Shown one piece after another: positions 30,643 to 43,332 of a stretch of DNA of 64,000 bases (within the stretch, counting starts at the first letter, position 1; each line of letters starts with the position of its first letter). The notes beneath the pieces are model-generated. The model did no database searches, had not been told where the DNA came from, and was given only the letters and a program-made list of their open reading frames with translations. The position numbers and the translations under genes were made by a program. The stretch is from Actinomycetes bacterium (GTDB taxonomy: Bacteria; Actinomycetota; Acidimicrobiia; Acidimicrobiales; RAAP-2). Location: positions 37,652 to 101,651 of the forward strand of contig JAKBNL010000006.1 in the NCBI GenBank assembly GCA_021831035.1, read 5' to 3'.

Positions 30643-30668
30643 GGAATAGCGACCCGCGGCGCGGGGTT
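30643..30668 (+). promoter_or_regulatory. ECF (SigR/SigH-type) promoter GGAAT-N18-GTT
   Basis: GGAAT AGCGACCCGCGGCGCGGG GTT, 9 nt before GTG 30678. Confidence 0.75.
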
Positions 30669-30677
30669 AATCCTTTC

Positions 30678-32168
30678 GTGCAGAGCCGCGGACCCTCGAC
30701 GCCCGGGGCCGGCGTCGAGGTGACCGGTGACCACTACGGGGCGTCCGGCGGGTCGGGCCTCGCGCGCGGCCAGCTGCGCTTCGTGCGCACCGTGGCGCTG
30801 TCGGTGGGCATCCAGGGACCGGTGGCCGGGGTGATCGTCGGCCCGGCGATCCTCGCCGGGCTCGTCGGTGGGTCGGGGGCGCTCGCCTACCTGCTGGGCT
30901 TTGTCGCCATGTCCTTCGTGGCCTACGCCTTCGTCGTGTTCGCCCGCTCCTTCAGCTCGTCGGGGTCGATCTACGCGTTCAACTCGGCGGCGCTGGGCCC
31001 GACCTACGGATTCGTGTCGGCGTGGATACTGCTGCTCGTCTACCTCTCCTTCGCCGCCGCCGTCTACGCGAGCACCGCCGACATCGCCCAGACGCTGCTC
31101 GCGTCCTGGGGCGTGCACGTGCCGTGGGTGTGGCTCGCCCTGGCCGGCGTCGCCGTCACCATGCTCTTCGCCCACCGCTCGATCCGCTTCGCCACGACGG
31201 CGATCTTCGCCGTCGAGGGCGTCGCGGTGGTGCTCGTGAGCGTGGTGGTGGTCGCCGTCGTGGTGCGCCACGGCGTGGGCCACGCCCTCGCCCCGACCCC
31301 GTTCGGGCTGCACGGGCTCGGCCTCGGCGCGCTGGCGCTCGGCGTCGTGAACGCCTTCGGGGCCTTCAGCGGCTTCGAGGGGGCGGCGACCCTCGGCGAG
31401 GAGTCCACCGAGGCGACGCGCACCATCCCCCGGGCGATCGGCTGGTCGCTCGCGGGATCGGCTCTCGTCTACATCGTCGTCACCTGGATCGCCGACAACG
31501 CCTACCCCTCCCCGCACGCCCTCGCCGCCGACCCCGCGCCCCTCGTGCACCTGGCCGACCTCTACGTCGGGTCGTGGATGGGCACGGTGGTGAACGCCGC
31601 CGGGGTCGTGAGCGCCTTCGGCGCCCAGCTGGCCTGCGTCGTCGCGGCGAACCGGCTGATCTACGCGCTGGGGCGCGACGTGACACCCGAAGGGGGCGCG
31701 CTGCGCCGCCTCCTCACCCGCGTCCACCCCCGCTTCCGCTCGCCGTCGGGGGCGCTCGCGGTCTCGGGCACCGTGACCCTGGCGGCGCTGCTCGCCTTCT
31801 CGAAGGAGGCGAGCGCGGTGCGTGCCCTCACCCTGACCGTTGAGTTCGGCGCGTACCTCATCATCGTGGCCTACCTGCTCACCGTGGTGGCCGCCGGCGC
31901 GTGGGTGCTGCGCCGGGCCCGGCGGTCCGGCCCCGTGGTCGCCCTGGCGCTCGGGACGCTCGTCTTGGGCGTCGTCCTCTACGACACCCTCCACCCCTTC
32001 CCTCCGGCGCCCTTCGACTGGATCGTGGTGGCGGCGGGCCTGGCCGTGGCGGCCGGCCTGGTCTTGGCGTTCGCTCCGGGGGTGCGCCGGCGTCTCGCCG
32101 TCTCACCGCTGCTGGTGGCGGTCCGCCGCGCCCCGCGCCTCCCGCCGGCGGGCGCTCAGCCCGGCTGA
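30678..32168 (+). CDS. APC-family amino acid permease
   Basis: SSSGSIYAF, FSGFEGAATLGEES, about 12 TM segments, HPRFRSP. Confidence 0.9.
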   Translation: MQSRGPSTPGAGVEVTGDHYGASGGSGLARGQLRFVRTVALSVGIQGPVAGVIVGPAILAGLVGGSGALAYLLGFVAMSFVAYAFVVFARSFSSSGSIYAFNSAALGPTYGFVSAWILLLVYLSFAAAVYASTADIAQTLLASWGVHVPWVWLALAGVAVTMLFAHRSIRFATTAIFAVEGVAVVLVSVVVVAVVVRHGVGHALAPTPFGLHGLGLGALALGVVNAFGAFSGFEGAATLGEESTEATRTIPRAIGWSLAGSALVYIVVTWIADNAYPSPHALAADPAPLVHLADLYVGSWMGTVVNAAGVVSAFGAQLACVVAANRLIYALGRDVTPEGGALRRLLTRVHPRFRSPSGALAVSGTVTLAALLAFSKEASAVRALTLTVEFGAYLIIVAYLLTVVAAGAWVLRRARRSGPVVALALGTLVLGVVLYDTLHPFPPAPFDWIVVAAGLAVAAGLVLAFAPGVRRRLAVSPLLVAVRRAPRLPPAGAQPG

Positions 32169-32803
32169 GTGCCCGAGCGCCGCCGCACGGGACGACCCTC
32201 CACGGCCGGAGGACGCAGTGCCCGGGCGACGCGCGCGACTCTTTGGACGGCCGTCACCGCGACGAGGGCGGCGAAGGTCCACGCGACGGTCGTCGCCCCG
32301 GTCGGCCACGCGAGCACGACGGTGTAGGCGAGGATCGTCTCGGCCCCCTCGGCCAGTCCGCCGAGGAGGTTCACCGAGCGCTCGTCGTGGGCCACGCCGT
32401 GACGCTCGAGGATGGCCGACCCGCCGAGCAGCGCGGTGCCCGAGAGGTAGTAGGCGACCAGCAGCGCCACCGTCGCGAGGCGCGCCGCGGGCTCGACCAC
32501 GGCGACCGCCAGCGCCAGCCCGGCGTAGATCGAGAAGTCCGCGACGAGGTCGAGGTAGCCACCGAGCTCGCTCGCGCCCCGGCGGCGCGCCAGCGCCCCG
32601 TCGAGGCCGTCGAGGGCGCGGTTCGCCCACCAGGCGAGGAGCGCGAGCGGCCACAGGCGCCCGAGCGCGGCGCCGATCGCCCCGAGGCCGACCAGCCAGC
32701 CGACCGCGGTCACGGTGCCCGCCCGCGCACCGCGGCGCTCCAGCGCGCCCGCGACCCGGTCGAGGGTCGGGGCGAGACGGCGACGCAGGCGGGCGTCGAA
32801 CAT
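32156..32803 (-). CDS. CDP-alcohol phosphatidyltransferase family (YnjF-like)
   Basis: NRALDGLDGALARRRG...GGYLDLVADF (DGxxAR...GxxLD..D) and GGLAEGAETI. TGATG overlap with the radical SAM gene. Confidence 0.88.
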   Translation of the reverse strand: MFDARLRRRLAPTLDRVAGALERRGARAGTVTAVGWLVGLGAIGAALGRLWPLALLAWWANRALDGLDGALARRRGASELGGYLDLVADFSIYAGLALAVAVVEPAARLATVALLVAYYLSGTALLGGSAILERHGVAHDERSVNLLGGLAEGAETILAYTVVLAWPTGATTVAWTFAALVAVTAVQRVARVARALRPPAVEGRPVRRRSGTQPG

Positions 32804-34215
32804 CAGGCGGCCGGGGCTCCTCGACGTCGGGGCAGGGGGAGGCGCTGGGCCAGGTCGAGGTTCTCGCGCGGGTCGAGGACCCCGTGCTGCACGCAGGCCG
32901 GCACCGTGCGTCCGTCCTCGGGGTGGGCCATCAGGTAGGAGCAGGCGGCGAGGCGCTCTTGGACCGCACGGACCTCGGGATCGGCGGCGACCTCGCCGGC
33001 CTCGAGCAGCGCCCACGCCGGGGCGACCTCCGCGGCGTCCATGAACCGGTGCATCACGAAGGTCGTCAGGCGGGGCCGCTCGGCGAGCACGCGGCGCCAC
33101 CCGCCGGCCCGGCGGACCGCGCGCCGGGCCCAGGCGAGGGCCGTCCCGACGAGCCGGGGGTGGCAGAGGGCGACGGCCCCGAGGCGTAGGGCCACGAGAG
33201 GCGCCGGGGCCGAGAAGTGGAAGCCGCCGAGGTGGGCGAAGAGCGCGTCGCGGGCGGCGAGGTCCCGGGGGTCGTCCTCGTCGAGCAGGCTCACCCAGCG
33301 CTCACCCGAGTAGAAGCCCCAGGCGGTGCGGTTGCAGCGCAGGTCGCCCACCTGCAGCACCCGGTAGGGGAGGCGAGCTCCGGCCCCCTCCTCGATCCGC
33401 GCCCACACCCGGTCGGCGTCGAGGAGCGAGTAGTCCGAGCGCCACCGTCGGTCGTCGCCGACGAAGGCGGCCGGCTGGAAGGAGAACATGCCGTAGCCCA
33501 GCCCACGGGCCTCGGCGAGCAGGTCGGGGATCTGGTCAACGTTCTCGGGGGTCACGGTGACGTTGTGGGCGAGGAAGGTGCGCACGCCGCGCTCGCGCAG
33601 GCGGGCGAACATCGCGGCCACTCGCGCGCGCTCGGGGGTGAGGTCGGTCTCGCGTTCCACCCGGCGCTGGCCGCGCCGTCCGCGCATCGTCGTGTCGATG
33701 TGCACGGCGAAGGAGAGCCGCGCCAGACGTCGCCGCCCGTCGGGCCCGGTCACCAGGCGCTCGAGGTAGTCGAGGTCGATGTCCCCGTGGGAGAAGCTCA
33801 TCGGCTCGCGACCGTGGCGGCGCATGGCCAGCAGCGCCGCGGCGTGGTCGTCGGGGTCGAGCAGGGTCACCTCGCCGCCGATGAGCTGGGCGTGCGCGTG
33901 GGGCGCGCGCGCCTCGAGGAAGGCGATCTGCGACTCGACCTCGGCGAGGGTGTGGGGCCCGTCGACGCGCACGCGGTTCGCGTCCGCGGAGTGGTAGCAG
34001 GGCGTGCACGAGAAGTTGCAGCGGGGGAAGACCCCGTGGGTCCCTTCGCACTCGACGCCGAAGCGCCCCAGGGCCTGGGCGGGCGTGCGCACGTGCTCGG
34101 GCAGCTCCGCCCACCGTCGCGCGAGGGCGTCGCGCGCCGCGGGGCTGACGGGTCGCAGGGCGCCCCTCACCCGCTCGACGGCCGGCGACCACCGCCGCGC
34201 GGGCTCAGTCCTCAT
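32803..34215 (-). CDS. Radical SAM protein of unknown function
   Basis: CNFSCTPC (CxxxCxxC), LIGGEVT, SFQP, C-terminal RLAACSY...DGRTVPAC. Confidence 0.9.
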   Translation of the reverse strand: MRTEPARRWSPAVERVRGALRPVSPAARDALARRWAELPEHVRTPAQALGRFGVECEGTHGVFPRCNFSCTPCYHSADANRVRVDGPHTLAEVESQIAFLEARAPHAHAQLIGGEVTLLDPDDHAAALLAMRRHGREPMSFSHGDIDLDYLERLVTGPDGRRRLARLSFAVHIDTTMRGRRGQRRVERETDLTPERARVAAMFARLRERGVRTFLAHNVTVTPENVDQIPDLLAEARGLGYGMFSFQPAAFVGDDRRWRSDYSLLDADRVWARIEEGAGARLPYRVLQVGDLRCNRTAWGFYSGERWVSLLDEDDPRDLAARDALFAHLGGFHFSAPAPLVALRLGAVALCHPRLVGTALAWARRAVRRAGGWRRVLAERPRLTTFVMHRFMDAAEVAPAWALLEAGEVAADPEVRAVQERLAACSYLMAHPEDGRTVPACVQHGVLDPRENLDLAQRLPLPRRRGAPAA

Positions 34216-34507
34216 CGACCGCGTCGCCCTCGGCCAGGCGGGCGGCGAACGCGCGCAGCCGCTCGAGGGCGTCGCGGTCTTCGATCACGACCGGTTGGCC
34301 GTCGGGGGAGTCGTGAAGCACGTCGACGATGCGCCGGTACGTGTCGAACTCCATGCCGCAGCGCACGCAGGTCATCAGGTGCTCGCGGACCTGCGCGGCC
34401 GTGGCCGCGTCGAGCTCGCCGTCGAGGTAGTGCTGGAGCCAGCGCCCCATCGCGTGACAGGTGCGCATCTCGTCCACGGTCTCGCGCACGTGACGGAGCC
34501 TCTTCAT
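34205..34507 (-). CDS. Zinc-binding anti-sigma factor (zf-HC2/ZAS)
   Basis: YLDGEL...VREHLMTCVRC (HxxxCxxC). ATGA overlap with the sigma gene. Confidence 0.88.
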   Translation of the reverse strand: MKRLRHVRETVDEMRTCHAMGRWLQHYLDGELDAATAAQVREHLMTCVRCGMEFDTYRRIVDVLHDSPDGQPVVIEDRDALERLRAFAARLAEGDAVDED

Positions 34508-35067
34508 CGTCGGGCGCCTTTCGTCGGGGCCAGGTCGGCCAAGATGAGGTACTCGCGCACGCTGCGTCGCGCGCGGTGCAGTCGGCTCATCACCGTGCCG
34601 ACGGGGACGCCGAGCACGGCGGCGGCCTCGGCGTAGGCGAGGCCGTCGACGTCGACGAGCTCCATCACCCGCCGGCGGGCCTCGGGCAGCTCGCCCATCG
34701 CCGCGCGCACGGCGGCCGTGAAGGCGCGCGACTCGGTGAGCTCGGCCGGGTCGCTCACCCGGGTCTCGGGCACGGCCTCGGCGTCCTCGGCGCGCTCGAG
34801 GCTCTCGGGCCGACGTGCGCGGAATCGGTTGGCGCTGACGTTGCGCAAGATCGTGAAGAGCCACGCCCGGGGGTGCGCACCGTCGAAGGTGTGGATCGCC
34901 CGATAGGCGCGCAGCAGCGTCTCTTGGACCAGGTCCTCGGCGTCGTGGGGGCTCGAGCTGAGCGAGCGGGCGACCCGCAGCAGAGCCGGGAGCTCGGGCA
35001 CGACGTAGCGCGAGAAGGGGTCCGACGCACCCGCACGCTCCGCCCCGCGGTGGCCCTCGGCGTCCAT
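34504..35067 (-). CDS. ECF sigma-70 factor
   Basis: DAEDLVQETLLRAY...RAWLFTILRN (region 2); YAEAAAVLGVPVGTVMSRLHRAR (region 4). Confidence 0.93.
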   Translation of the reverse strand: MDAEGHRGAERAGASDPFSRYVVPELPALLRVARSLSSSPHDAEDLVQETLLRAYRAIHTFDGAHPRAWLFTILRNVSANRFRARRPESLERAEDAEAVPETRVSDPAELTESRAFTAAVRAAMGELPEARRRVMELVDVDGLAYAEAAAVLGVPVGTVMSRLHRARRSVREYLILADLAPTKGARR

Positions 35068-35076
35068 CACGGGTGC

Positions 35077-35102
35077 AACCCTCGCACGCACCGGTCTATT
35101 CC
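35077..35102 (-). promoter_or_regulatory. ECF promoter GGAAT-N18-GTT upstream of the sigma gene (autoregulatory)
   Basis: Minus strand GGAAT AGACCGGTGCGTGCGAGG GTT, 9 nt before ATG 35067. Confidence 0.75.
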
Positions 35103-36454
35103 CGCTGCGAGGGCCGCGCGGAGCGCCCGGCGAACTCCCCGAAGAACTGGGCCGCGGCCTGCTGGATCGCCACGGACCAGCTGGGGTAGGGGTGGGCGGT
35201 GAGGGCGAGGCGCGCGGGGTAGAGCCCGGCGCGCAGGGCCAGGGCCAGCTCGGCGATCATCTCGCCGGCCCGCGGGGCCACGATCGTCGCCCCGACCAGG
35301 CGCCCCCCGAGCCGGTGGCGCGTCAGGGGCGCCGCGACGGCGATCAACTTGACGAACCCGTCGGTCTCACCGGTGGCGCGGGCCCGGTCGACCTCGCCGA
35401 GGGGAACGAAGGCGACCCGGGCCGACGGGTCGCGGACCTCGGCCTCGGTCGCCCCTACGCGGGCCACCTCGAGGGAGCCGTAGGTGACGGCGGGCGCCCA
35501 TTCGGGGTGGGCGCGCAGGGCGGGCACCGGGCCGAGGGCGTTGAGGGCGGCCACGCGCCCCATCTCGTACGCGACGTGAGTGAGGTTCAAGGATGTCGCG
35601 ACGTCACCCGCGGCGTAGACGCCCCGGGCGGAGGTCCGCAGCCGTCGGTCGACCCGCACGTGGCCGCTTCTCTCGAGGGCGACGCCGGCGGCCTCGAGTC
35701 CGAGCCCGGCGGTCGCGGGAGCCCGTCCCAGGGCCACCAGGAGCAGGTCGCCGGTGACGGTGCGCCCGTCGACGAGGCGAACCTCGACCCCCTCGGAGTG
35801 GCGGGCCTCGCTCGCGGCGTGGCCGGTGACGACGTCGACGCCGAGCCGGGTGAGGAGGGCCGTGAGTGCGGCGCTCGCCTCGGGCTCCTCGCGCGGGAGC
35901 AGGCGGGCCGCCGCCTCGACCACCGTGACCCGGCTGCCCAGTCGGCTGAAGGCCTCGGCCATCTCGACCCCGATCGGCCCGCCGCCGAGGATGACCAGGT
36001 GCCCGGGCCGCCGGCCGATCGCGAAGAGGTCCTCGTTGGTCACGGTTCGCGGCCCGTCGAGCCCCGGGATGGGGGGCCGCACCGCGTCGGCCCCGGCGCA
36101 CAGGACGACCCGGCGTGCCGCGAGGGCCCGTCCGTCGACCTCGAGGGTCCGAGCGCCGACGAAGCGGGCGCGTTCCTCGAGCACCGTCACGCCCAGGGCC
36201 CTCAGGGTCTCGGCGCTCTCGGTCGCGGCGACCTCCTCGACGACGCGCGCGACGTCGGCCATCGCTCCGACGAAGTCCCGGCCCGCCCGCGCCGAGGCCA
36301 GGAGCGTCTTGGAGGGCACGCAGCCACGGAAGGTGCAGTCGCCCCCGAGGGGGCCGTCGTTGATGAGGGTCACCGCGGCGCCGCGGCGCCGGGCGGTCCC
36401 GGCCGCCGACAGCCCCGCCGCACCCCCGCCGACTACGACCAGATCTCGTCCCAC
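35096..36454 (-). CDS. Class I pyridine nucleotide-disulfide oxidoreductase (MerA/LPD-like, substrate unknown)
   Basis: GGGAAG, GGDCTFRGCVPSK, GGGPIGVE, YAAGDV, HPYPSWS. No C-terminal CC. Confidence 0.9.
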   Translation of the reverse strand: MGRDLVVVGGGAAGLSAAGTARRRGAAVTLINDGPLGGDCTFRGCVPSKTLLASARAGRDFVGAMADVARVVEEVAATESAETLRALGVTVLEERARFVGARTLEVDGRALAARRVVLCAGADAVRPPIPGLDGPRTVTNEDLFAIGRRPGHLVILGGGPIGVEMAEAFSRLGSRVTVVEAAARLLPREEPEASAALTALLTRLGVDVVTGHAASEARHSEGVEVRLVDGRTVTGDLLLVALGRAPATAGLGLEAAGVALERSGHVRVDRRLRTSARGVYAAGDVATSLNLTHVAYEMGRVAALNALGPVPALRAHPEWAPAVTYGSLEVARVGATEAEVRDPSARVAFVPLGEVDRARATGETDGFVKLIAVAAPLTRHRLGGRLVGATIVAPRAGEMIAELALALRAGLYPARLALTAHPYPSWSVAIQQAAAQFFGEFAGRSARPSQRE

Positions 36455-36462
36455 TATCGGGC

Positions 36463-36488
36463 AACCGTCGCCGGGGCGTCCCTATTCC
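36463..36488 (-). promoter_or_regulatory. ECF promoter GGAAT-N18-GTT
   Basis: Minus strand GGAAT AGGGACGCCCCGGCGACG GTT, 8 nt before GTG 36454. Confidence 0.75.
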
Positions 36489-36512
36489 ATTCCCGGCCCC
36501 GGCGACCGCGGG

Positions 36513-36538
36513 GGAATGGCGCGGGCGCACGCGGCGTT
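36513..36538 (+). promoter_or_regulatory. ECF promoter GGAAT-N18-GTT
   Basis: GGAAT GGCGCGGGCGCACGCGGC GTT, 8 nt before GTG 36547. Confidence 0.75.
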
Positions 36539-36546
36539 GCCCCGGT

Positions 36547-36867
36547 GTGAGTGCCCCGTCGCCTCTCGGGTCGACGCCCTCGGCGGGCGAGCGCCTCGCC
36601 TGGTCACGTCCGCGCGAGGCGCTCGCCCACCTCGTGCGGGGCCGCACGGCCCGCGTCGCCGCCCCGGTCGCGGCCGTCGTGGGTACGGTGCTCTCGGCGG
36701 CCAACGAGGGGTCGTCGATCCTGGCCGGCCGGCTCGGTACGGCGGGCGTCGCGCGCCTCGTGGTCAACTTCGTCGTCCCCTTCCTCGTGGCGAGTTGGGG
36801 CGCTCTGTCGACGCACCGGCGGGGGGTCGGGAATACGCCCGACGCCGAGCGGGTTACCGGGGCATGA
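36547..36867 (+). CDS. Small membrane protein, NrtS-like
   Basis: VAAVVGTVLSAANEG...NFVVPFLVASWG resembles the NrtS family signature. Confidence 0.65.
   Translation: MSAPSPLGSTPSAGERLAWSRPREALAHLVRGRTARVAAPVAAVVGTVLSAANEGSSILAGRLGTAGVARLVVNFVVPFLVASWGALSTHRRGVGNTPDAERVTGA
36830..36855 (+). promoter_or_regulatory. ECF promoter GGAAT-N18-GTT upstream of thioredoxin
   Basis: GGAAT ACGCCCGACGCCGAGCGG GTT, 8 nt before ATG 36864. Confidence 0.75.
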
Positions 36868-37199
36868 GCACTATCACCCACGCCAACGACCGCTTCAGCT
36901 TCGAGCGCGACGTCCTGACCTCGCCGGTCCCGGTCGTCGTCGACTTCTGGGCCGGCTGGTGCGGCCCGTGCCGACTGGTCGCCCCGGAGCTCGAGCGGCT
37001 CGCCGCGAGCCACGGCGAGGCGGTGCGCGTCGTCAAGGTCGACGTCGACCGCAACGGCGAGGTCGCCGCCGAGTACGGGATCCAGTCGATCCCGACCATC
37101 GCCCTGTTCCGGGCGGGCCGCTGGATCGCCTCGAGCGTCGGCGCGAAGCCGGCCCGCGACATCGAGCGCGACCTGGGACTCGTCTCCGCCGAGGCGTGA
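36864..37199 (+). CDS. trxA: Thioredoxin
   Basis: VVVDFWAGWCGPC, KVDVD, YGIQSIPT. Buried inside longer shadow ORFs in the track. Confidence 0.95.
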   Translation: MSTITHANDRFSFERDVLTSPVPVVVDFWAGWCGPCRLVAPELERLAASHGEAVRVVKVDVDRNGEVAAEYGIQSIPTIALFRAGRWIASSVGAKPARDIERDLGLVSAEA

Positions 37200-37951
37200 G
37201 CACGCCGGGCGCGACCGGCCTCGCCGGCGCGCTGATCGAGGTGCCCTGCGTGTCGGCGAGCCAGATGCGCCGGGTCGGCGAGGTGGCGGTGCGTCGCTAC
37301 CACGTCCGCGTCATCCAGATGATGGAGAACGCCGGACGGGCGCTCGCGGACCTCGTCGGCGAGCGGCTGTCGCCCCGGAGCGTCGTGGTCCTCGCGGGCA
37401 CCGGGCACAACGGGGGCGGGGGGCTCGTCGGCGCGCGCCACCTCGCCAACCGCGGGGTCGAGGTGAGCGTCGTCACCGACCCCGACGCCCGCCGCGCCCC
37501 GCTCACCGCGCACCAGCTGCGCGCCCTCGTGGCGAGCGGCGTCGAGGTCACCGACCGACCGCGGCTCGCCAGCGACGTGGTGATCGACGCGCTCGTCGGG
37601 TACTCGCTCGCCGGACCCCTGCGCGGGCGGACCGCCGACTGGTCGCGCTGGACCCGCCGCCAGGGGGCACCGGTCGTCGCGCTCGACCCGCCGACCGGGC
37701 TCGACGCCACGACGGGCGTCCTCGACCCGACGGCCACCCACGCCGACCTCACCGCGACCCTGGTCCTGCCCAAGCGGGGGATGGTCGATCGGCCCGAGGT
37801 CGGCGAGGTGCACCTGGTCGACGTGGGCGTCCCGCGGGCCGCGCTCGCCGCCGCCGGGCTCGACGCGCCCGCGCTCGCCGTCCGCGGCGCTACCGTGACG
37901 CTGACGGCCGTGCCCGGAGGGTTCGCCGCCGTGGGGGAGGTCGCGCGGTGA
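37196..37951 (+). CDS. nnrE: NAD(P)H-hydrate epimerase (stand-alone YjeF_N/NnrE)
   Basis: MMENAGRA, LAGTGHNGGGG..ARHL, IDALVGY, ALDPPTG, LPK. GTGA overlap with trxA. Confidence 0.82.
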   Translation: MSTPGATGLAGALIEVPCVSASQMRRVGEVAVRRYHVRVIQMMENAGRALADLVGERLSPRSVVVLAGTGHNGGGGLVGARHLANRGVEVSVVTDPDARRAPLTAHQLRALVASGVEVTDRPRLASDVVIDALVGYSLAGPLRGRTADWSRWTRRQGAPVVALDPPTGLDATTGVLDPTATHADLTATLVLPKRGMVDRPEVGEVHLVDVGVPRAALAAAGLDAPALAVRGATVTLTAVPGGFAAVGEVAR

Positions 37952-38250
37952 GGGTGGACCTGATCTACGACGACGACTGCCCCAACTGGCGCACGGTCGC
38001 CGACGAACTCACCGAGCTGCTCGGCGAGTGCGACTTCACCCTCGAGCTGCGCGAGTCCTCGTCCCTCGATCCGACCCTCGCCGCCCGGTACCGGGGCTCC
38101 CCGACGATCCTCGTCGACGGGCGTGACCCCTTCGTCGGCGAGGGCGAGCCCGTCGGGGCGGCCTGTCGGATCTACCGGACCCCGCGGGGCCCGGCCGGGG
38201 CACCGACCCTCGAGCAGCTGCGCGACGCGCTGGGCGCGCGGGGGCGCTGA
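37948..38250 (+). CDS. Small thioredoxin-like protein (CPN...GSPT..DG.DPF...CRIY type, often mer-operon associated)
   Basis: YDDDCPNW, YRGSPTILVDGRDPF, ACRIY, GAPT. Confidence 0.7.
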   Translation: MRVDLIYDDDCPNWRTVADELTELLGECDFTLELRESSSLDPTLAARYRGSPTILVDGRDPFVGEGEPVGAACRIYRTPRGPAGAPTLEQLRDALGARGR

Positions 38251-38251
38251 C

Positions 38252-38608
38252 GTGGACCGGGGCCGCGCACCGCGCACCGAGGATGTCCTCGAGCAGCCGG
38301 AGGCCGTCGCCGAGGCGCCGGTCGGCGTGCGTCTGGGCGAGGGGGTCGCCGAGCTCGCGGCGGCGCGCGGGGGCGTCATCTACCTGCGCCTGCGCGAGTC
38401 GCGCTGCTGTTCGGGGACCCTCGCCTTCCTCGACGCGGTGACCGAGCCCCCCGCCCGCGCGGATGCCGAGCGCGCCTGGCTCGTCGAGGGCGTCGAGGTC
38501 CGTCTCGTGAGCGCGCTTCGCCGTCCTCCCGTTGAGATCGCCATCGAGCGGCGCGGGCGCCGGGGCCGCCTCGTCGCCCTGTGGGACGGCTGCGCGTACC
38601 GACTCTGA
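38252..38608 (+). CDS. Small hypothetical protein with vicinal Cys
   Basis: GGVIYL..ESRCCSG and C-terminal WDGCAY. GTG directly follows the preceding stop. Confidence 0.6.
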   Translation: MDRGRAPRTEDVLEQPEAVAEAPVGVRLGEGVAELAAARGGVIYLRLRESRCCSGTLAFLDAVTEPPARADAERAWLVEGVEVRLVSALRRPPVEIAIERRGRRGRLVALWDGCAYRL

Positions 38609-38612
38609 CCCC

Positions 38613-39479
38613 CTAGTCCCTCGCGGCCCCGGGTCGGTGCTCGTGCGGGGCGAGTCGCGCCGTCACCTCGGCGGTGGTCCCGGGCCGGTCGAGCCAGGCC
38701 GCCGTCTGCTCTCGGGCCCGCTCGATCAGCTCGCTCGTGCGGGTGAAGTCCAGCGGGGAGACGGCGAGCGGGCAGAGTGGGGGCATGACGCGCAGGTCCA
38801 GCGTCCCCGCGTGGCGTTCGACGTCCTCGCGGAGGCGGCGTTGGATCAAGAGGGTGAGCGAGTGGAAGGCGACCCCGAGCGCGCTGCGCGGCGTGGCGCC
38901 CGCGGCGCAGGCGAAGCCCGTGGCCAGCACGTAGACCGCCGTCGCCCCGAGCTCGAGGGCGTGAGAGATTGGGGCGTTGTTGGCCACGCCGCCGTCGACG
39001 TGGGGGTGGCCGTCGATCCACACCGGCGGGAAGACCCCCGGGAGGGCGGCGCTCGCCATGACGGCCTCGACGATCGGGCCGCGGGTGATGAGCGTCTCGG
39101 CGCCGTTGTCGAGGGCGACGGCTACGACCGCGAGGGGAGTCGCGGACCCCTCCACCCGCGTCGACCCGAAGCTCTCGTCGAGGAGACGGCGCAGCCCGTG
39201 AGGGTCGACCAGGTGATCGGCCCGTCCGGCGATCCCCCGCAGACCGACGAGCAGCCGGCCCGGGAAGATGTGCTCTCGACGGACCCGGCACCAGACGCGC
39301 GCCAGCTCCTCGACCCCCGCGGGTCCGGGGTGCGTGGCCACCCACGCGGCGTTGATGGCCCCGATCGAGGTTCCGAGCACGAGGTCGGGCTCGACGCCGC
39401 GCTCGGCGAGGGCGCCGAGCATCCCCACCTGGACGGCGCCGAGGCTGCCGCCCCCGGTGAGGACGAACGCGGTCGTCAC
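38613..39479 (-). CDS. Patatin-like phospholipase
   Basis: GGGSLG, GTSIG nucleophile elbow, DGG. Confidence 0.92.
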   Translation of the reverse strand: MTTAFVLTGGGSLGAVQVGMLGALAERGVEPDLVLGTSIGAINAAWVATHPGPAGVEELARVWCRVRREHIFPGRLLVGLRGIAGRADHLVDPHGLRRLLDESFGSTRVEGSATPLAVVAVALDNGAETLITRGPIVEAVMASAALPGVFPPVWIDGHPHVDGGVANNAPISHALELGATAVYVLATGFACAAGATPRSALGVAFHSLTLLIQRRLREDVERHAGTLDLRVMPPLCPLAVSPLDFTRTSELIERAREQTAAWLDRPGTTAEVTARLAPHEHRPGAARD

Positions 39480-39492
39480 GGCGTCGCCGTCG

Positions 39493-40014
39493 TCAGCTCG
39501 TGCGCGACCCGCGCTCGCGCTGCCCCCGGCGTCCGAGCGCGCGGGCGGCGACCAGCAGGACCGCCACGCCGACGTAGGCCCACGAGAGGCCCGGGTGTCC
39601 GGAGGCCTCGAGGGCGAATGAGCCGAGGACTGCGACGACGATCACCGCGCTCCGCACGCCGTCGCGGCGGGGACGGGCGCCGGGCGCCTCGGGAGACCGG
39701 CCCACGGCGGTCAGGACCTCGTCGAGGGAGGGGTTCACGAGGGCGCGCCCACCGACGACGACCGTCGGCACGGTCTCGTTGCCGCGCGCGACGCGGCGCG
39801 CCGCCGCGGCGGCCGCGGGGTCGCGCCCGATGTCGGCCTCGGTCCGCTCGACCCGAGCCGCGCGAGGTCGGCGAGCAGCCGCGCGCACGAGGCGCAGCCC
39901 GGCCGCCGGTAGAGGGTGATCGGAGGCGGCTCGGGCGCCGCGACGACGGAGCGCCAGGGCTCTCCCGACGCGCCGTCACCGCCTTCGGGGGGGGCCGAGG
40001 GTGTCGCTCGCCAT
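39493..40014 (-). pseudogene. Frameshifted mycoredoxin/NrdH-like glutaredoxin with C-terminal TM hairpin
   Basis: ITLYRRPGCASC is in one frame and GNETVPTVVVG plus two TM helices in another. Indels lie at G8 39987-39994 and C3 39852-39854 (plus-strand runs). Confidence 0.7.
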
Positions 40015-40018
40015 CGGC

Positions 40019-40819
40019 TCAGGCCCCCACCCTCGCCGATCGCGGGGCGAGCGCCGGGGCCAGGATCGCCCCGACGACTAGGCCGAACATGAGGTGGGCG
40101 ATGAAGAACCACCACTGGGGCACGAAGGCCATCATCGAGTTCGTCGGGGGTAGCAGGACCCAGCGCATGAGGACGTACACCAGCGCCCCGCCGATCATCG
40201 AGGCGCCGATCACGCCGGCGCGCGTGCGCAGCGCCGACAGGCCCGCGCGACGGGCGCCCAGGATCACCGCGGCGAAGGCCACGCCGAGCAGCAGCGACAT
40301 CATCATGTGCAAGATGAGTCCCACCACGACCCGCCCGGGGCTCACGGGCATGGCCGCCATCACCGCGTCGCGCGCCGAGGCCGGCATGCCCGCCAACAGC
40401 TGGCTCACCGTCGAGTTGGTGGCGTGGCCGGTCATGAGCTGGCCCATGAGCTGGACCTTGGCCGCGGGGACGTGCATCCCCATGAGAAGCGCCCCGAAGT
40501 GCTGGGCCATGGCCGAGCTGATGCGGCCGCTGGCGATGGCGGCACTCATCGGGCCCATGGCCGAGGCCGGCAGTGAGATGCCCATGGCCCCCAAGAGCGA
40601 GGGCAGCATCGTGAGGGGCGGGGTGATCGTGTAGACGAAGGCCGGGATGCCGAGGTTCACCGGGCTCCAGAAGCCCTGGCCCGCGACGGCCATCACGACC
40701 ATCATGATCATCGCGAGCATGACGCCGCCGGCCAGGCCCGCGCCGAGGGCCCTCGGGACCCAGCGGGCGGTGGGCGACGCCGCCGGGGCGGCGGTGCGGT
40801 GGGTGGTGGCTGTCGTCAT
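40019..40819 (-). CDS. Methionine-rich integral membrane protein
   Basis: About 26 Met in 266 aa by hand count; His in TM segments (ILHMMMS, IAHLMFG); AAGGA RBS. Confidence 0.75.
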   Translation of the reverse strand: MTTATTHRTAAPAASPTARWVPRALGAGLAGGVMLAMIMMVVMAVAGQGFWSPVNLGIPAFVYTITPPLTMLPSLLGAMGISLPASAMGPMSAAIASGRISSAMAQHFGALLMGMHVPAAKVQLMGQLMTGHATNSTVSQLLAGMPASARDAVMAAMPVSPGRVVVGLILHMMMSLLLGVAFAAVILGARRAGLSALRTRAGVIGASMIGGALVYVLMRWVLLPPTNSMMAFVPQWWFFIAHLMFGLVVGAILAPALAPRSARVGA

Positions 40820-40867
40820 CTCAGTTGTCCTTCGTCGGGTTCTCGGCCGTATCGACCTCGCTGAGGG

Positions 40868-40893
40868 AACCCCGCTCACCGCGAGGGCATTCC
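40868..40893 (-). promoter_or_regulatory. ECF promoter GGAAT-N18-GTT
   Basis: Minus strand GGAAT GCCCTCGCGGTGAGCGGG GTT, about 48 nt before ATG 40819, which has its own RBS. Confidence 0.7.
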
Positions 40894-41061: not shown

Positions 41062-41811
41062 TCAGCCCCGGCGGACCATCACGATCCGGCGCAGGGGGAT
41101 CCCCAGGTCCGAGCCGACCCAGGTGCGCGCGAGCGCGTGGGCGCGCGGGAGGCGGCGCGGGTCGATTCCCGGAAGGTAAAGGGAGTCGACGAAGAGTCGG
41201 GCGTCCTGCTCTCGACCCATCTCGAAGGCGAACCGCCGCCGTGTGTCAGATAGCAGCCCCCACCCGCGTGGGGCGCGCGCGACCAGGGATGCGGGAGCGG
41301 CGCCGTTGGGATAGGCGAAGTGTGCTCGGCGCAGTCGCACGAGGAGGCGGGCCCAGCGCACCTGGTCCCGGGACGTCAGCACGGAACCCCCGCCTGGAGC
41401 GAGAGCCACGAGGCGCCCGCCCGGGGCGAGGACGCGCTCGACCTCACGGACGCACGACTCGAGGGGCTCGAGCAACATCAGAGCCATGGAGCACACGACT
41501 ACGTCGAACGCGGCGTCGATGAAAGGGAGGTGTGAGGCAGTCCCCACGATGTAGGCGGTGTTCGAGTGCTGGGCGGCCCGCGAGAGCTCGCTCGGGGAGC
41601 GGTCGAGCCCGATCCAGGGGCGACCCCAGCCCTCGGTGGCCATGGGGGCGCTCCCACAGGCGAGGTCCAGGGTGCGGGCGGAGGGCGTCGTGGCCTCCAG
41701 GAGCCACTGGTAGGGCGTGCGGCCGGTGAAGTAGGAGTGGGCGAGCACGTCCTCAGTGATGCCCGGGCGCCGTTGGTGGAAGTCCTTCAGGTAACTGGAC
41801 CAGGTCGTCAC
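41062..41811 (-). CDS. Class I SAM-dependent methyltransferase
   Basis: TLDLACGS, GLDRS, LPFIDAAFDVVVC, RVLAPGG. Confidence 0.88.
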   Translation of the reverse strand: MTTWSSYLKDFHQRRPGITEDVLAHSYFTGRTPYQWLLEATTPSARTLDLACGSAPMATEGWGRPWIGLDRSPSELSRAAQHSNTAYIVGTASHLPFIDAAFDVVVCSMALMLLEPLESCVREVERVLAPGGRLVALAPGGGSVLTSRDQVRWARLLVRLRRAHFAYPNGAAPASLVARAPRGWGLLSDTRRRFAFEMGREQDARLFVDSLYLPGIDPRRLPRAHALARTWVGSDLGIPLRRIVMVRRG

Positions 41812-42045: not shown

Positions 42046-43332
42046 ATGTCAAAGGTTGTGCAGCGTCGCTGGACCGGAGACGGTTCCGGTCCCACACGCC
42101 GTGACCGCCTCGGCTGCGACTACCAATCGTATGTCCCGGACGAGCTCCAGGGTCGTGCGTTCGTCCTGGATGGTGACGTCGCCGCGGACATTGCAGAAGC
42201 AGAAGCAGCGATCCTGAGACTCAACGCAAACGCCACTGCACTCACGAACACCGAAGCCCTTGCACGAATCCTCCTCCGTGCGGAGGCCGTCGCCTCCTCC
42301 CGCATCGAGGGGCTCGAAGTGGGAGCGCGCCGCTTGCTCCACGAGGAGGTCAGTAGAGAGACGGAGGGCAAGTCGGCCGATGTCACCGCATCGGAAGTTC
42401 TTTCGAACATCGACGCAATGGCGTTTGCGGTGAACGCGATCCGCGCGGGCGACCGGATAACGCTCGACGTGGTCCTCGACACTCACAGGCTCCTCCTCGC
42501 CCATACTCGCCTCAGCCATCACGGGGGGCTACTGCGAGGAGAGCAGAACTGGATCGGGGGAAGCTCATACAACCCCTGCTCGGCCGCATTCGTTCCGCCA
42601 CCAGAGAATCTCGTGTTGCCGCTCATGGAAGACCTCGTTGCGTTCTGCAACGACGACGGCTTGCCGCCCGTGGCGCAGGCAGCCATCGTTCACGCGCAGT
42701 TCGAAACCATTCACCCATTCGTCGATGGCAATGGGCGGACGGGTCGCGCCCTGATGCATATCGCTCTCAGACGTCGTGGACTTGCGGAGAAGGTCCTGAC
42801 GCCAGTCTCGCTGGTCCTCGCGACGTGGTCGAAGGCGTATGTCAACGCCCTCACCGAGTATCGGTACTCTGGAGCAGCAGACTCGGCCGATGCTCGGAGG
42901 GGAGTCAATGCCTGGATTTCGCAATTCTCGACTGCGTGCACACGAGCGTGCGCCGATGCCGAGTCATTCGAACGGCGCGCCAGCGAGATCCAAGCTGAGT
43001 GGCGACGGCGAATCGGCAGCATCCGGCGCAACTCTGCGGCCGATCTGCTACTCAAGGCACTGCCTGGTGCACCAGTGCTTACGGTCTCGGGCGCTGCATC
43101 GCTCATCGGACGAACCTTTCCCGCGGCCAACAACGCCATCAGTACGCTCACTGCGGTGGACGTGCTGCGACAAGTGACAGTCGGTAAGCGGAATCGTGCT
43201 TACGAAGCGCCAGATATCATCGCCGCGTTCACCGACCTGGAACGCCAGCTTGCAAGCCCCGAAGGAAGCTCTCTTTCCTCCCTGCCAAGCCGGCCTGTCC
43301 CGCAACGACCCGGGAGCGCTGAAGGGGCATAG
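42046..43332 (+). CDS. fic: Fic family protein (class II, with C-terminal wHTH)
   Basis: Canonical HPFVDGNGRTGR; inhibitory SSRIEG helix N-terminal to it. Confidence 0.93.
   Translation: MSKVVQRRWTGDGSGPTRRDRLGCDYQSYVPDELQGRAFVLDGDVAADIAEAEAAILRLNANATALTNTEALARILLRAEAVASSRIEGLEVGARRLLHEEVSRETEGKSADVTASEVLSNIDAMAFAVNAIRAGDRITLDVVLDTHRLLLAHTRLSHHGGLLRGEQNWIGGSSYNPCSAAFVPPPENLVLPLMEDLVAFCNDDGLPPVAQAAIVHAQFETIHPFVDGNGRTGRALMHIALRRRGLAEKVLTPVSLVLATWSKAYVNALTEYRYSGAADSADARRGVNAWISQFSTACTRACADAESFERRASEIQAEWRRRIGSIRRNSAADLLLKALPGAPVLTVSGAASLIGRTFPAANNAISTLTAVDVLRQVTVGKRNRAYEAPDIIAAFTDLERQLASPEGSSLSSLPSRPVPQRPGSAEGA

What the first reader, a model, noticed from the sequence alone, without database searches (positions are those of the whole stretch)
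32156..34215. Radical SAM enzyme translationally coupled to a YnjF-like CDP-alcohol phosphatidyltransferase
Seen: TGATG overlap; CxxxCxxC, GGEVT, FQP and a terminal RLxxC...DGRxVPxC. Known: the FQP and terminal C...DGRxxPxC pattern recalls the Tes/GDGT-MAS (MJ0619-type) radical SAM group that acts on lipids, but the N-terminal Cys clusters of Tes are absent here. E. coli YnjF is an uncharacterised member of this transferase family. Inference: a two-step pathway that makes or modifies a membrane lipid or head group under thiol/metal stress.
Basis: partly seen in the sequence, partly recalled or inferred. Interest (0 to 1): 0.7.

Follow-up and report, generated by a model that had tools for sequence, protein, structure and literature searches.

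The report
Cut-down Tes-like radical SAM with YnjF
A stress-controlled operon in an acid-mine-drainage actinobacterium pairs an uncharacterised iron-sulfur radical enzyme, a remote stripped-down relative of the archaeal lipid-welding enzyme Tes, with the counterpart of E. coli's unexplained lipid head-group transferase YnjF; the pairing recurs widely, so it probably makes or alters an unknown membrane lipid.

Summary
All the motifs are present, and a TGATG overlap joins a 470-aa radical SAM (rSAM) gene (32803-34215, -) to a 215-aa CDP-alcohol phosphatidyltransferase gene (32156-32803, -). The transferase is the reciprocal best hit of E. coli YnjF (37% identity).

The rSAM belongs to a large unnamed family with seven invariant Cys. 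It has no direct sequence match to any solved structure. Three lines tie it remotely to tetraether synthase Tes/GDGT-MAS:
- A full-length fold match to 7TOL (E 1e-10).
- A profile bridge through a sister family.
- Shared FQP and HxFMDA...C...PxDGRxxPxC motifs.

It lacks Tes's two N-terminal metal domains and fails the Tes family model, so it is not Tes.

The YnjF-like gene lies near the rSAM in 41 of 80 related loci, 29 of them directly downstream. It is one of two near-exclusive partner modules. The other carries MTAP, TIGR04282/TIGR04283 and a second rSAM, and 0 of 24 such genomes have any YnjF. A MerA/Lpd-like flavoprotein accompanies both.

Here sigma, anti-sigma, rSAM and YnjF-like genes form one coupled operon behind a leaderless GGAAT-N18-GTT promoter, inside a six-promoter thiol-stress-type regulon.

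The chemistry is unknown. My best reading is radical modification of a phospholipid built from an imported head group.

The parts
35077..35102 (-). SigR/SigH-type promoter (GGAAT-N18-GTT) of the sigma/anti-sigma/rSAM/YnjF-like operon. The ATG lies 9 nt after the GTT, so the transcript is probably leaderless.
   Evidence: same arrangement upstream of the sigma gene in relatives
34504..35067 (-). ECF sigma factor (regions 2 and 4). The start is placed at ATG 35067 because the promoter overlaps the longer ORF.
34205..34507 (-). ZAS-type anti-sigma factor (zf-HC2, H-x3-C-x2-C = HLMTCVRC), 100 aa. Its ATG overlaps the sigma stop as ATGA.
32803..34215 (-). Radical SAM enzyme, 470 aa, of an unnamed family. 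It is a remote N-terminally cut-down homologue of Tes/GDGT-MAS. rSAM cluster ligands are C66/C70/C73. Putative auxiliary-cluster ligands are C294/C425/C441, possibly with M388. C56 is an extra invariant Cys.
32156..32803 (-). YnjF-type CDP-alcohol phosphatidyltransferase, 215 aa. The catalytic motif D65-x2-D-G-x2-A-R-x7-G-x3-D85-x3-D89 is intact. It is translationally coupled to the rSAM gene (TGATG).
35096..36454 (-). MerA/Lpd-like pyridine-nucleotide disulfide oxidoreductase with a CxxxxC redox centre. It is the most constant neighbour of the rSAM family.
36463..36488 (-). GGAAT-N18-GTT promoter of the reductase gene. The GTG start lies 8 nt after the GTT.
30643..30668 (+). GGAAT-N18-GTT promoter of the permease gene. 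GTG 30678 lies 9 nt after the GTT.
30678..32168 (+). APC-family amino acid/organocation permease, convergent with the YnjF-like gene and overlapping its 3' end by 13 nt. It is the candidate importer of the head-group precursor.
36830..37199 (+). GGAAT-N18-GTT promoter plus thioredoxin gene (36864-37199), in the same regulon.
41062..41811 (-). Class I SAM methyltransferase. Its best model is the DVU_1556 family, below cut-off. Homologues recur beside the rSAM in 28 of 80 loci.

Best explanation
The ECF sigma, ZAS anti-sigma, rSAM and YnjF-like transferase genes are translationally coupled. They form a self-activating, probably leaderless operon within a local SigR/SigH-like (thiol-stress-type) regulon. 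That regulon also drives a MerA/Lpd-like flavoprotein reductase, a thioredoxin and an APC permease.

The rSAM belongs to an uncharacterised, strongly conserved, patchily distributed actinobacterial family. It is a remote, cut-down homologue of tetraether synthase Tes/GDGT-MAS. It keeps the rSAM cluster, the FQP contact to 5'-deoxyadenosine and the C-terminal auxiliary [4Fe-4S] domain with three Cys and perhaps one Met. It has lost the rubredoxin domain and the N-terminal cluster domain.

Most likely mechanism (inferred):
1. The permease brings in a polar alcohol.
2. The YnjF-like enzyme joins that alcohol to a phosphatidyl group from CDP-diacylglycerol.
3. The rSAM abstracts a hydrogen atom from this lipid, on the head group or the chain. 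It uses its auxiliary cluster as Tes does, to hold or convert the substrate radical, possibly through a C-S bond.
4. The flavoprotein reductase serves the redox side of the cycle.

The YnjF-plus-importer set is one of two interchangeable modules that feed the same rSAM/reductase core.

Shown here: gene structure, homologies, conserved linkage, and promoter motifs with their spacing. Inferred: the substrate, the order of steps, the reaction chemistry and the inducing signal.
For: Operon and regulon:
- Overlapping start and stop codons join all four genes.
- There are six GGAAT-N18-GTT sites within 10 kb against 1.3 expected in the whole window.
- Five of the six have a start codon 8-9 nt after the GTT.
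- In relatives the same motif sits upstream of the sigma, reductase, permease and rSAM genes.
- The anti-sigma factor carries the zf-HC2/HxxxCxxC motif.

Tes relationship:
- The AF2 model has pLDDT 81.5.
- Foldseek's top hit is 7TOL, E 9.7e-11, TM 0.53/0.51, over 461 columns. The next rSAM enzymes align over only about 240 columns.
- The sister-family profile A2 hits 7TOL at E 2.9e-18 across the rSAM and C-terminal domains.
- A1 against A2 gives probability 100%, E 4.5e-77.
- Tes and TrsS are the best NCBIfam matches of the sister family.
- By alignment, C294/C425/C441, M388-H389 and Q247 correspond to the Tes HQHC Cys, C456, C470, M439-H440 and Q268. The roles of those Tes residues come from PMC9433317 and PMC13459092.

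YnjF identity: 37% identity over 195 aa, reciprocal best hit, intact catalytic motif.

Linkage:
- A YnjF-like gene is present in 41 of 80 loci, 29 of them directly downstream on the same strand.
- It co-occurs with an importer (APC or YnjBC) in 25 of 29 loci, against 1 of 22 loci without it.
- The reductase is present in 40 of 51 fully flanked loci.
- The two context types switch at least 10 times on the rSAM tree.

Substrate supply: a CdsA gene is present, so CDP-diacylglycerol is available.
Against: - There is no experimental or transcript evidence. The metatranscriptomes from the same study gave only 18-24-nt chance matches.
- The direct sequence signal to Tes is nil. There is no PDB hit with the protein or its profile. 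The Tes model scores only 13 bits, less than it gives this genome's MoaA (82 bits).
- 41 of the 138 invariant residues are Arg, Lys, Asp, Glu or His. That suits a polar substrate better than a hydrocarbon tail.
- The rSAM works in 24 of 24 tested type II genomes with no YnjF, so its substrate need not be a YnjF product.
- The type II partners (MTAP-like phosphorylase, nucleotidyltransferase-like TIGR04282, GT2) and the thiol/selenol redox neighbours could equally point to soluble sugar, sulfur, selenium or arsenic chemistry.
- The sigma and anti-sigma factors score below the SigH and RsrA family cut-offs.
Confidence: 0.42

Rival explanations
1. Sulfur insertion instead of C-C coupling. The rSAM stops at the Tes-type carbon-sulfur(cluster) intermediate and releases a thiolated lipid or head group, as LipA does for lipoate. 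The adjacent Lpd/MerA-like flavoprotein then cycles the resulting thiol/disulfide. This would give a membrane-anchored redox buffer switched on by thiol stress.
For: - Tes forms a C-S bond to its C-terminal cluster (PMC9433317), and the ligands of that cluster are conserved here.
- A disulfide reductase is the constant partner and also sits beside a sister-family member.
- Thiol and selenol proteins recur around the superfamily: a SelL-related protein, a thioredoxin-like selenoprotein fusion, bacillithiol genes BshC and PIG-L, and CcdA and TlpA genes in type I loci.
- The operon lies in a SigR-type regulon that includes thioredoxin.
- E. coli ynjF lies beside the rhodanese gene ynjE and the AhpD-like gene ynjA.
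Against: - No thiolated phospholipid of this kind is known.
- No sulfur donor or cluster-repair gene lies in the operon.
- The association with redox proteins could reflect electron supply or co-regulation only.
- Nothing here distinguishes thiolation from other radical outcomes.
Confidence: 0.14
2. A true Tes-like tail-to-tail coupling enzyme. The rSAM joins two acyl chains of the phospholipid made by YnjF to give macrocyclic or membrane-spanning lipids.
For: - The full-length fold match to GDGT-MAS includes the domain that forms the lipid pockets.
- The auxiliary-cluster ligands are conserved.
- The partner is a phospholipid head-group transferase.
Against: - Both N-terminal metal domains are missing, and identity to 7TOL in the fold alignment is only 14%.
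- The family is an accessory trait, present in 7 of 277 good Actinomycetota genomes and absent from a same-genus genome.
- Its hosts include Streptomyces and Pseudonocardia, where membrane-spanning lipids are not known (own knowledge).
- The set of invariant residues is rich in charged residues.
- The thiol-redox partners are unexplained by this reading.
Confidence: 0.1
3. An organo-arsenic, organo-selenium or sugar pathway of the ArsS type. The rSAM adds a 5'-deoxyadenosyl group to a heteroatom or an alkene. The product is trimmed and activated, and here YnjF makes the phospholipid form, by analogy with arsenosugar phospholipids.
For: - In 26 of 80 relatives the rSAM sits beside an MTAP-like phosphorylase, often overlapping it, together with TIGR04282, TIGR04283 ('arsenosugar biosynthesis glycosyltransferase') and an Rv1681-type rSAM.
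- GT2-rSAM fusion proteins exist.
- HpnH/HpnG and ArsS are precedents for adenosylation followed by removal of adenine (PMC13459092, PMC12159101).
- The organism comes from mine drainage.
Against: - This genome has no TIGR04283 or ArsS above cut-off and no MTAP-like or TIGR04282 homologue.
- The rSAM shows no similarity to ArsS.
- No ars genes were seen in the island.
- The fold relative is Tes, which abstracts hydrogen, not an adenosylating enzyme.
Confidence: 0.14
4. The two enzymes are only co-regulated stress genes with unrelated substrates, and the adjacency reflects shared control rather than a shared pathway.
For: - The rSAM occurs without YnjF.
- YnjF occurs without the rSAM in E. coli.
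- The island holds other general thiol-stress genes.
Against: - The genes are directly adjacent on the same strand, often overlapping, in 29 loci across several orders.
- YnjF is present with strong exclusivity against the alternative module (Fisher p 3e-7, not corrected for phylogeny).
- In this window the genes are translationally coupled.
Confidence: 0.1

Closest known systems
Tetraether lipid synthase Tes / GDGT-MAS (M. jannaschii MJ0619; PDB 7TOL and 7TOM; NCBIfam NF045702)
   Same: - Radical SAM core.
- FQP glutamine that binds 5'-deoxyadenosine.
- C-terminal auxiliary-cluster domain with the HxFMDA...C...PxDGRxxPxC motif and a third Cys.
- Best and only full-length fold match.
   Different: - Lacks the rubredoxin domain (C9/C12/C33/H36) and the N-terminal [4Fe-4S] domain (C73/C77/C80/His).
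- 14% identity in the fold alignment.
- Fails the family model (13 bits against a cut-off of 450).
- Found in aerobic actinobacteria as an accessory gene.
- Travels with thiol-redox and head-group genes.
- Many invariant charged residues.
E. coli K-12 ynjF and the adjacent ydjX-ydjY-ydjZ-ynjA-ynjB-ynjC-ynjD-ynjE cluster (all uncharacterised)
   Same: - The transferase is the reciprocal best hit of YnjF and has the same catalytic motif.
- In relatives the rSAM/YnjF pair sits with YnjB- and YnjC-like ABC importer genes (14 and 12 of 80 loci) and DedA genes (12 of 80).
- Sulfur-redox genes accompany both sets.
   Different: - E. coli has no member of this rSAM family.
- In this window the importer is an APC permease instead of YnjBCD.
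- No DedA gene was found beside the operon; the one weak YdjZ-like hit lies on contig C18. No YnjA, YnjE or YdjY homologue was found in the genome.
Radical SAM (seleno)protein TrsS (NCBIfam NF045646) and the unnamed sister family A2
   Same: - They fall in the same superfamily branch. Sister-family members score about equally on the Tes and TrsS models.
- They share partners from thiol and selenol redox families.
   Different: - The window protein matches TrsS only at the CxxxCxxC region (18.5 bits against 490).
- No selenocysteine is evident.
- TrsS itself is uncharacterised.
ArsS-type 'rSAM/selenodomain' cassette (TIGR04167 + TIGR04282 + TIGR04283), and HpnH/HpnG
   Same: The alternative (type II) neighbourhood of the same rSAM family carries TIGR04282, TIGR04283 and an MTAP/PNP-fold enzyme.
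   Different: - None of these genes is in this genome.
- The rSAM is unrelated to ArsS and HpnH beyond the shared core fold.
SigR-RsrA / SigH-RshA thiol-stress ECF systems of actinobacteria
   Same: - ECF sigma plus ZAS anti-sigma factor.
- Autoregulated GGAAT-N18-GTT promoters.
- Thioredoxin in the regulon.
   Different: - Both proteins score below the SigH and RsrA family cut-offs (98 against 251.55 bits; 28.8 against 62.5).
- The sigma pair is fused into one operon with the rSAM and the transferase.

Membership tests
Tes / GDGT-MAS | CX3CX2C radical SAM cluster motif and the GGE SAM-binding motif | tested here: met
   C66/C70/C73 and GGEVT 113-117 are invariant in the family.
Tes / GDGT-MAS | C-terminal auxiliary [4Fe-4S] domain ligated by three Cys and a labile Met (Met439), with a conserved Tyr459 nearby | tested here: met
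   Tested by alignment only. C294, C425 and C441 are invariant and M388 is at least 90% conserved. They align through the sister family to the Tes HQHC Cys, C456, C470 and M439. Y427 lies next to the Y459 position. Metal binding was not measured.
Tes / GDGT-MAS | N-terminal rubredoxin-like site C9-X2-C12-X20-C33-X2-H36 | tested here: not met
   The only Cys before the rSAM motif is C56.
Tes / GDGT-MAS | N-terminal [4Fe-4S] cluster (C73, C77, C80 and a His) | tested here: not met
   No such motif is present. The N-terminal 55 residues are predicted to be helical.
Tes / GDGT-MAS | Score over the NCBIfam NF045702 cut-off (450 bits) | tested here: not met
   No hit at E <= 0.01. The genome scan gives 13.3 bits, less than MoaA's 82 bits.
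Tes / GDGT-MAS | Overall fold including the lipid-pocket domain | tested here: met
   Foldseek to 7TOL gives E 9.7e-11 and TM 0.53/0.51 over 461 columns, using a model of pLDDT 81.5.
Tes / GDGT-MAS | Tail-to-tail C-C coupling of membrane lipids | not testable with these tools
   This needs lipid analysis or an enzyme assay.
YnjF subfamily of CDP-alcohol phosphatidyltransferases (PF01066) | Pfam domain over the gathering score and an intact D-x2-D-G-x2-A-R-x7,8-G-x3-D-x3-D motif | tested here: met
   24.6 bits against a cut-off of 22. D65, D68, G69, A72, R73, G81, D85 and D89 can be read directly from the sequence.
YnjF subfamily of CDP-alcohol phosphatidyltransferases (PF01066) | Reciprocal best hit with E. 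coli YnjF | tested here: met
   37% identity over 195 aa, E 4e-28. It is the only hit of YnjF in this genome and the only hit of the window protein in K-12.
YnjF subfamily of CDP-alcohol phosphatidyltransferases (PF01066) | Neighbourhood with a YnjBCD importer and DedA proteins | tested here: inconclusive
   Present in relatives (YnjB in 14, YnjC in 12 and DedA in 12 of 80 loci). In this window an APC permease takes that place.
ArsS arsenosugar cassette | rSAM of family TIGR04167 with TIGR04282/TIGR04283 partners | tested here: not met
   The protein has no ArsS hit. The genome has none over the cut-off. No MTAP-like or TIGR04282 homologue was found. The partners occur only in relatives' type II loci.
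SigR/SigH-type ECF-ZAS regulon | ECF sigma, ZAS HxxxCxxC anti-sigma and autoregulatory GGAAT-N18-GTT promoters | tested here: met
   The promoter consensus is taken from established knowledge of SigR and SigH.
SigR/SigH-type ECF-ZAS regulon | Orthology to SigH (TIGR02947) and RsrA (TIGR03988) | tested here: not met
   98.3 bits against a cut-off of 251.55, and 28.8 against 62.5.
SigR/SigH-type ECF-ZAS regulon | Induction by thiol oxidants | not testable with these tools
   No usable RNA data exist.

The most novel reading that the evidence does not exclude
The rSAM family is a minimal Tes derivative that has turned the Tes carbon-sulfur(cluster) intermediate into an end product. It installs sulfur on a lipid or its head group. 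The always-adjacent Lpd/MerA-like flavoprotein keeps the resulting thiol or dithiol reduced. The result would be an undescribed membrane-anchored redox-buffer lipid, induced by a SigR-type thiol-stress circuit. It could be built either from an imported head group (YnjF arm) or from a head group made de novo (type II arm). This would also assign a first function to E. coli YnjF-type transferases.
Probability: 0.12. Interest if true: 0.9.

Novelty: new variant of a known kind. Interest (0 to 1): 0.62.

Why it matters
The rSAM family is large: more than 2,400 clusters at 90% identity, in about 2.5% of sampled Actinomycetota species. It is unusually conserved, 57-70% identical in a sample spanning several actinobacterial classes, yet it has no name, no structure and no literature.

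Placing it as a stripped-down relative of Tes gives a concrete mechanistic frame and testable residues. Its tight link to YnjF offers a way into a long-standing E. coli gene cluster of unknown function (ydjX-ynjF).

Its control by a thiol-stress-type sigma factor, together with its constant disulfide-reductase partner, suggests an unrecognised link between radical lipid or head-group chemistry and redox stress. The existence of two interchangeable partner modules is a useful handle for working out the product.

Tried and rejected
- **Direct sequence searches against the PDB.** Neither the protein nor its family profile found a solved relative. The Tes link needed a fold search and a bridging family.
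- **NCBIfam on the rSAM.** Only chance-level hits at the CxxxCxxC region, to TrsS and viperin.
- **True Tes.** Rejected on the missing N-terminal domains and the model score. The Tes model's best hit in this genome is MoaA, which shows how weak direct scores are.
- **ArsS/arsenosugar reading for this locus.** Rejected because the genome lacks the cassette.
- **Obligate rSAM-YnjF pair.** Rejected on 0 of 24 type II genomes with YnjF against 12 of 12 controls.
- **Separate rSAM subfamilies for the two contexts.** Rejected because the context switches at least 10 times on the tree, even within one Streptomyces clade.
- **Transcript evidence.** Only DNA runs hold the locus. Three metatranscriptomes from the same study gave only 18-24-nt spurious matches.
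- **Literature.** 'ynjF' occurs in six papers, none functional by title or abstract. Nothing was found on this rSAM family. The TrsS source paper (Haft and Tolstoy 2025) is not held.
- **Closest solved CDP-alcohol transferase.** Only a weak match to IPCT/DIPPS 4MND, so there is no guide to the head group.
- **Model coordinates.** They were not available to scripts, so I could not check distances between cluster ligands or the character of the pocket.

Full report
**Observation.** The window is high-GC DNA from a 1.9-Mb Acidimicrobiaceae-like genome, and the locus is held in mine-drainage and wastewater metagenome runs.
- On the minus strand, a 470-aa ORF (32803-34215) is followed by a 215-aa ORF (32156-32803). 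The junction is TGATG.
- Only one Cys (C56) precedes the rSAM motif.
- Pfam assigns Radical_SAM and CDP-OH_P_transf, both above their gathering scores.

**The operon is longer than the finding.**
- The ECF sigma stop and the anti-sigma start overlap as ATGA.
- The anti-sigma stop overlaps the rSAM start by 11 nt. So sigma, ZAS anti-sigma (zf-HC2, HLMTCVRC), rSAM and transferase are four coupled genes.
- A GGAAT-N18-GTT site lies at 35077-35102, with an ATG 9 nt after the GTT.
- The window has six such sites, all between 30.6 and 40.9 kb. Shuffles of the whole 64 kb give 1.3, and only 1 of 100 shuffles reaches six.
- Five of the six have a start codon 8-9 nt after the GTT, the pattern of leaderless transcripts. 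These five serve the APC permease, the sigma operon, the MerA/Lpd-like reductase, a small NrtS-like membrane protein and thioredoxin.
- GGAAT-N18-GTT is the SigR/SigH consensus (established knowledge).
- In related loci the same motif sits upstream of the sigma, reductase and permease genes. Where no sigma gene intervenes, it sits directly upstream of the rSAM gene.
- The sigma and anti-sigma factors score below the SigH and RsrA family cut-offs. They are a SigR-like pair, not the named orthologues.

**The transferase.** It is 37% identical to E. coli YnjF over 195 residues (E 4e-28).
- YnjF's only hit in this genome is this gene. This gene's only hit in K-12 is ynjF.
- The catalytic motif D65-x2-D-G-x2-A-R-x7-G-x3-D85-x3-D89 is intact.
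- No close solved structure exists.
- A CdsA gene is present, so CDP-diacylglycerol is available.
- YnjF is annotated only as a domain-containing protein. A full-text search found six papers that mention it, none functional by title or abstract.

**The radical SAM enzyme.**
- It has more than 2,400 homologues at E <= 0.001 among the candidates scored. The best 120 are all 59-94% identical, and the few with names are labelled only 'radical SAM protein' or 'hypothetical'.
- An alignment of 30 homologues shows 138 invariant positions, including seven Cys: C56, C66, C70, C73, C294, C425 and C441.
- Neither the protein nor its profile matches any PDB sequence. No NCBIfam model fits.
- An AlphaFold model (pLDDT 81.5, pTM 0.86) finds GDGT-MAS/Tes (7TOL) as its top hit: E 9.7e-11, TM 0.53/0.51, over 461 columns. 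All other rSAM enzymes align over only about 240 columns of the core, at E >= 2e-5.

**A sequence bridge to Tes.**
- An exhaustive profile search found a second tier of full-length proteins at E 1e-40 to 1e-55.
- Their best NCBIfam matches are Tes (NF045702) and the selenoprotein TrsS (NF045646), at 32-66 bits.
- A profile of 20 of these proteins (A2) hits 7TOL at E 2.9e-18 across the rSAM and C-terminal domains.
- A1 against A2 gives probability 100%, E 4.5e-77, over the full length.

**Residue map.** The alignments give the following equivalences. The PDB chain runs 20 residues ahead of native numbering, checked against Tyr459, Gln268, Ser271 and Cys102/105 named in PMC9433317.

| Window protein | Tes (native numbering) |
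|---|---|
| C66/C70/C73 | C98/C102/C105 |
| Q247 in SFQP | Q268, which binds 5'-deoxyadenosine |
| C294 in GDxRCNR | the Cys of SHQHC (C338) |
| M388-H389-R-F-M-D | M439-H440-F-M-D |
| C425 | C456 |
| Y427 | next to the Y459 position |
| C441 | C470 |

- Tes's C-terminal cluster has three Cys and one labile Met ligand. It forms the C-S bond intermediate (PMC9433317, PMC13459092).
- The rubredoxin site and the N-terminal cluster of Tes have no counterpart here.
- The Tes model gives this gene only 13 bits, less than the 82 bits it gives this genome's MoaA.
- The protein is therefore a remote, cut-down homologue of Tes and not a member of the Tes family.

**Conserved context.** A genome-collection scan found at least 586 loci, and the best 80 were kept. 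They span Acidimicrobiia, Streptomyces, Pseudonocardiaceae, Geodermatophilus, Gaiellales and others. Counts by tblastn:
- A YnjF-like gene lies within 6 kb in 41 of 80 loci. In 29 it is directly downstream on the same strand.
- The MerA/Lpd-like reductase is present in 55 of 80.
- An APC permease is present in 21, YnjB- and YnjC-like ABC genes in 14 and 12, DedA in 12, and a DVU_1556-like methyltransferase in 28.

A second, alternative neighbourhood ('type II') carries these genes:
- a metallophosphoesterase fused to an Rv1681-type rSAM (26 loci);
- TIGR04283 (23 loci) and TIGR04282 (17 loci);
- an MTAP-like phosphorylase (14 loci);
- a SelL-related redox protein (18 loci);
- a further FAD oxidoreductase (16 loci).

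Among the 51 loci with at least 4 kb on both sides:

| Context | Loci |
|---|---|
| YnjF only | 26 |
| Type II only | 18 |
| Both | 3 |
| Neither | 4 |

- Fisher's test gives p 3e-7, uncorrected for phylogeny.
- YnjF comes with an importer in 25 of 29 loci, against 1 of 22 loci without YnjF.
- Whole-genome checks show that 0 of 24 type II genomes have any YnjF-like gene. All 12 positive controls have exactly one strong match.
- On a maximum-likelihood tree of the rSAM, the context label changes at least 10 times, even within one Streptomyces clade. The same orthologue therefore works with either module.
- GT2-rSAM fusion proteins exist (P0095 and P0133).
- This genome has none of the type II genes. 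Its methyltransferase homologue lies 7 kb away at 41062-41811.
- E. coli K-12 has YnjF but no such rSAM.
- The family is found in 7 of 277 good-quality Actinomycetota species genomes and is absent from a species of the same genus. It is an accessory trait.

**Sister-family contexts.** These also feature thiol chemistry:
- DUF547 is adjacent twice and fused once.
- Bacillithiol genes BshC and PIG-L lie nearby.
- A Pyr_redox_2 reductase is adjacent.
- One member is fused to a thioredoxin-like (seleno)protein, and another to a polyprenyl-phosphate-type GT2.

**Interpretation.**
- The secure conclusions are the operon structure, the YnjF identity, the remote Tes homology with a conserved auxiliary-cluster domain, the conserved but non-obligate linkage, and the SigR-type promoter set.
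- The chemistry is inferred. I favour radical modification of a phospholipid whose head group is imported and attached by the YnjF-like enzyme, with the flavoprotein as redox partner (0.42).
- Against a hydrocarbon-tail substrate, 41 of the 138 invariant residues are charged or His, so the head group may be the target.
- The rivals are thiolation via the Tes-type C-S intermediate (0.14), ArsS-like adenosylation chemistry (0.14), true tail coupling (0.10) and mere co-regulation (0.10).
- No transcript data could be obtained, and no paper on the family was found.

**Verdict.** This is a real, conserved and uncharacterised system. It is a new family-level variant within the Tes/TrsS branch of radical SAM enzymes, with a defined partner set and regulatory circuit. 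Interest is 0.62.

Noticed in passing
window 30643-40893: Six GGAAT-N18-GTT sites, all with exactly 18-nt spacing. Five have a start codon 8-9 nt after the GTT. This is a compact leaderless ECF regulon: permease, sigma operon, reductase, NrtS-like protein and thioredoxin. The sixth site (40868-40893, -) has no start codon within 45 nt.
   Followed up: yes
window 37948-38250 (+): A 100-aa protein with an N-terminal DCPNW motif. Its best match is the 'DF family (seleno)protein' model (47 bits, below the cut-off of 70). Homologues recur in 6 related loci.
   Followed up: partly
window 40019-40861 (-): A 280-aa ORF with no Pfam or NCBIfam family. It is conserved in 8 related loci, where it is often preceded by a GGAAT-N18-GTT site.
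   Followed up: partly
window 38613-39479 (-): A patatin-like phospholipase gene inside the island, conserved in 6 related loci. It is a second lipid-active enzyme near the operon.
   Followed up: no
window 42046-43332 (+): A Fic/DOC family protein with a Fic_N domain, just beyond the island.
   Followed up: no
window 32156-32168: The YnjF-like gene and the convergent APC permease gene overlap by 13 nt at their 3' ends.
   Followed up: no
P0095 (690 aa), P0133 (493 aa): Natural fusions of a family 2 glycosyltransferase domain to the N-terminus of this rSAM family. P0095 is 66% identical to the window protein over the rSAM part.
   Followed up: partly
L092, L093, L094; P0248, P0210, P0254: The sister rSAM family (A2) is adjacent to or fused with DUF547. 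It also lies next to bacillithiol genes (BshC, PIG-L) and a Pyr_redox_2 reductase. Other members are fused to a VPGUxxT thioredoxin-like (seleno)protein or to a polyprenyl-phosphate-type GT2.
   Followed up: partly
L002, L004, L006, L007, L012, L018: In several Acidimicrobiales loci a CcdA/DsbD-like membrane protein and a TlpA-like thioredoxin lie a few genes from the rSAM. This hints at an extracytoplasmic thiol-redox link.
   Followed up: no
genome G209 (same genus as the window): A 99%-complete genome of the same genus has no member of the rSAM family, so the system is gained or lost at species level.
   Followed up: no
G000 contig C8:81885-83804 (-): The best match to the Tes family model in this genome is a MoaA-like gene (82 bits on the core only). 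This is a warning that core-only scores to NF045702 are not specific.
   Followed up: yes
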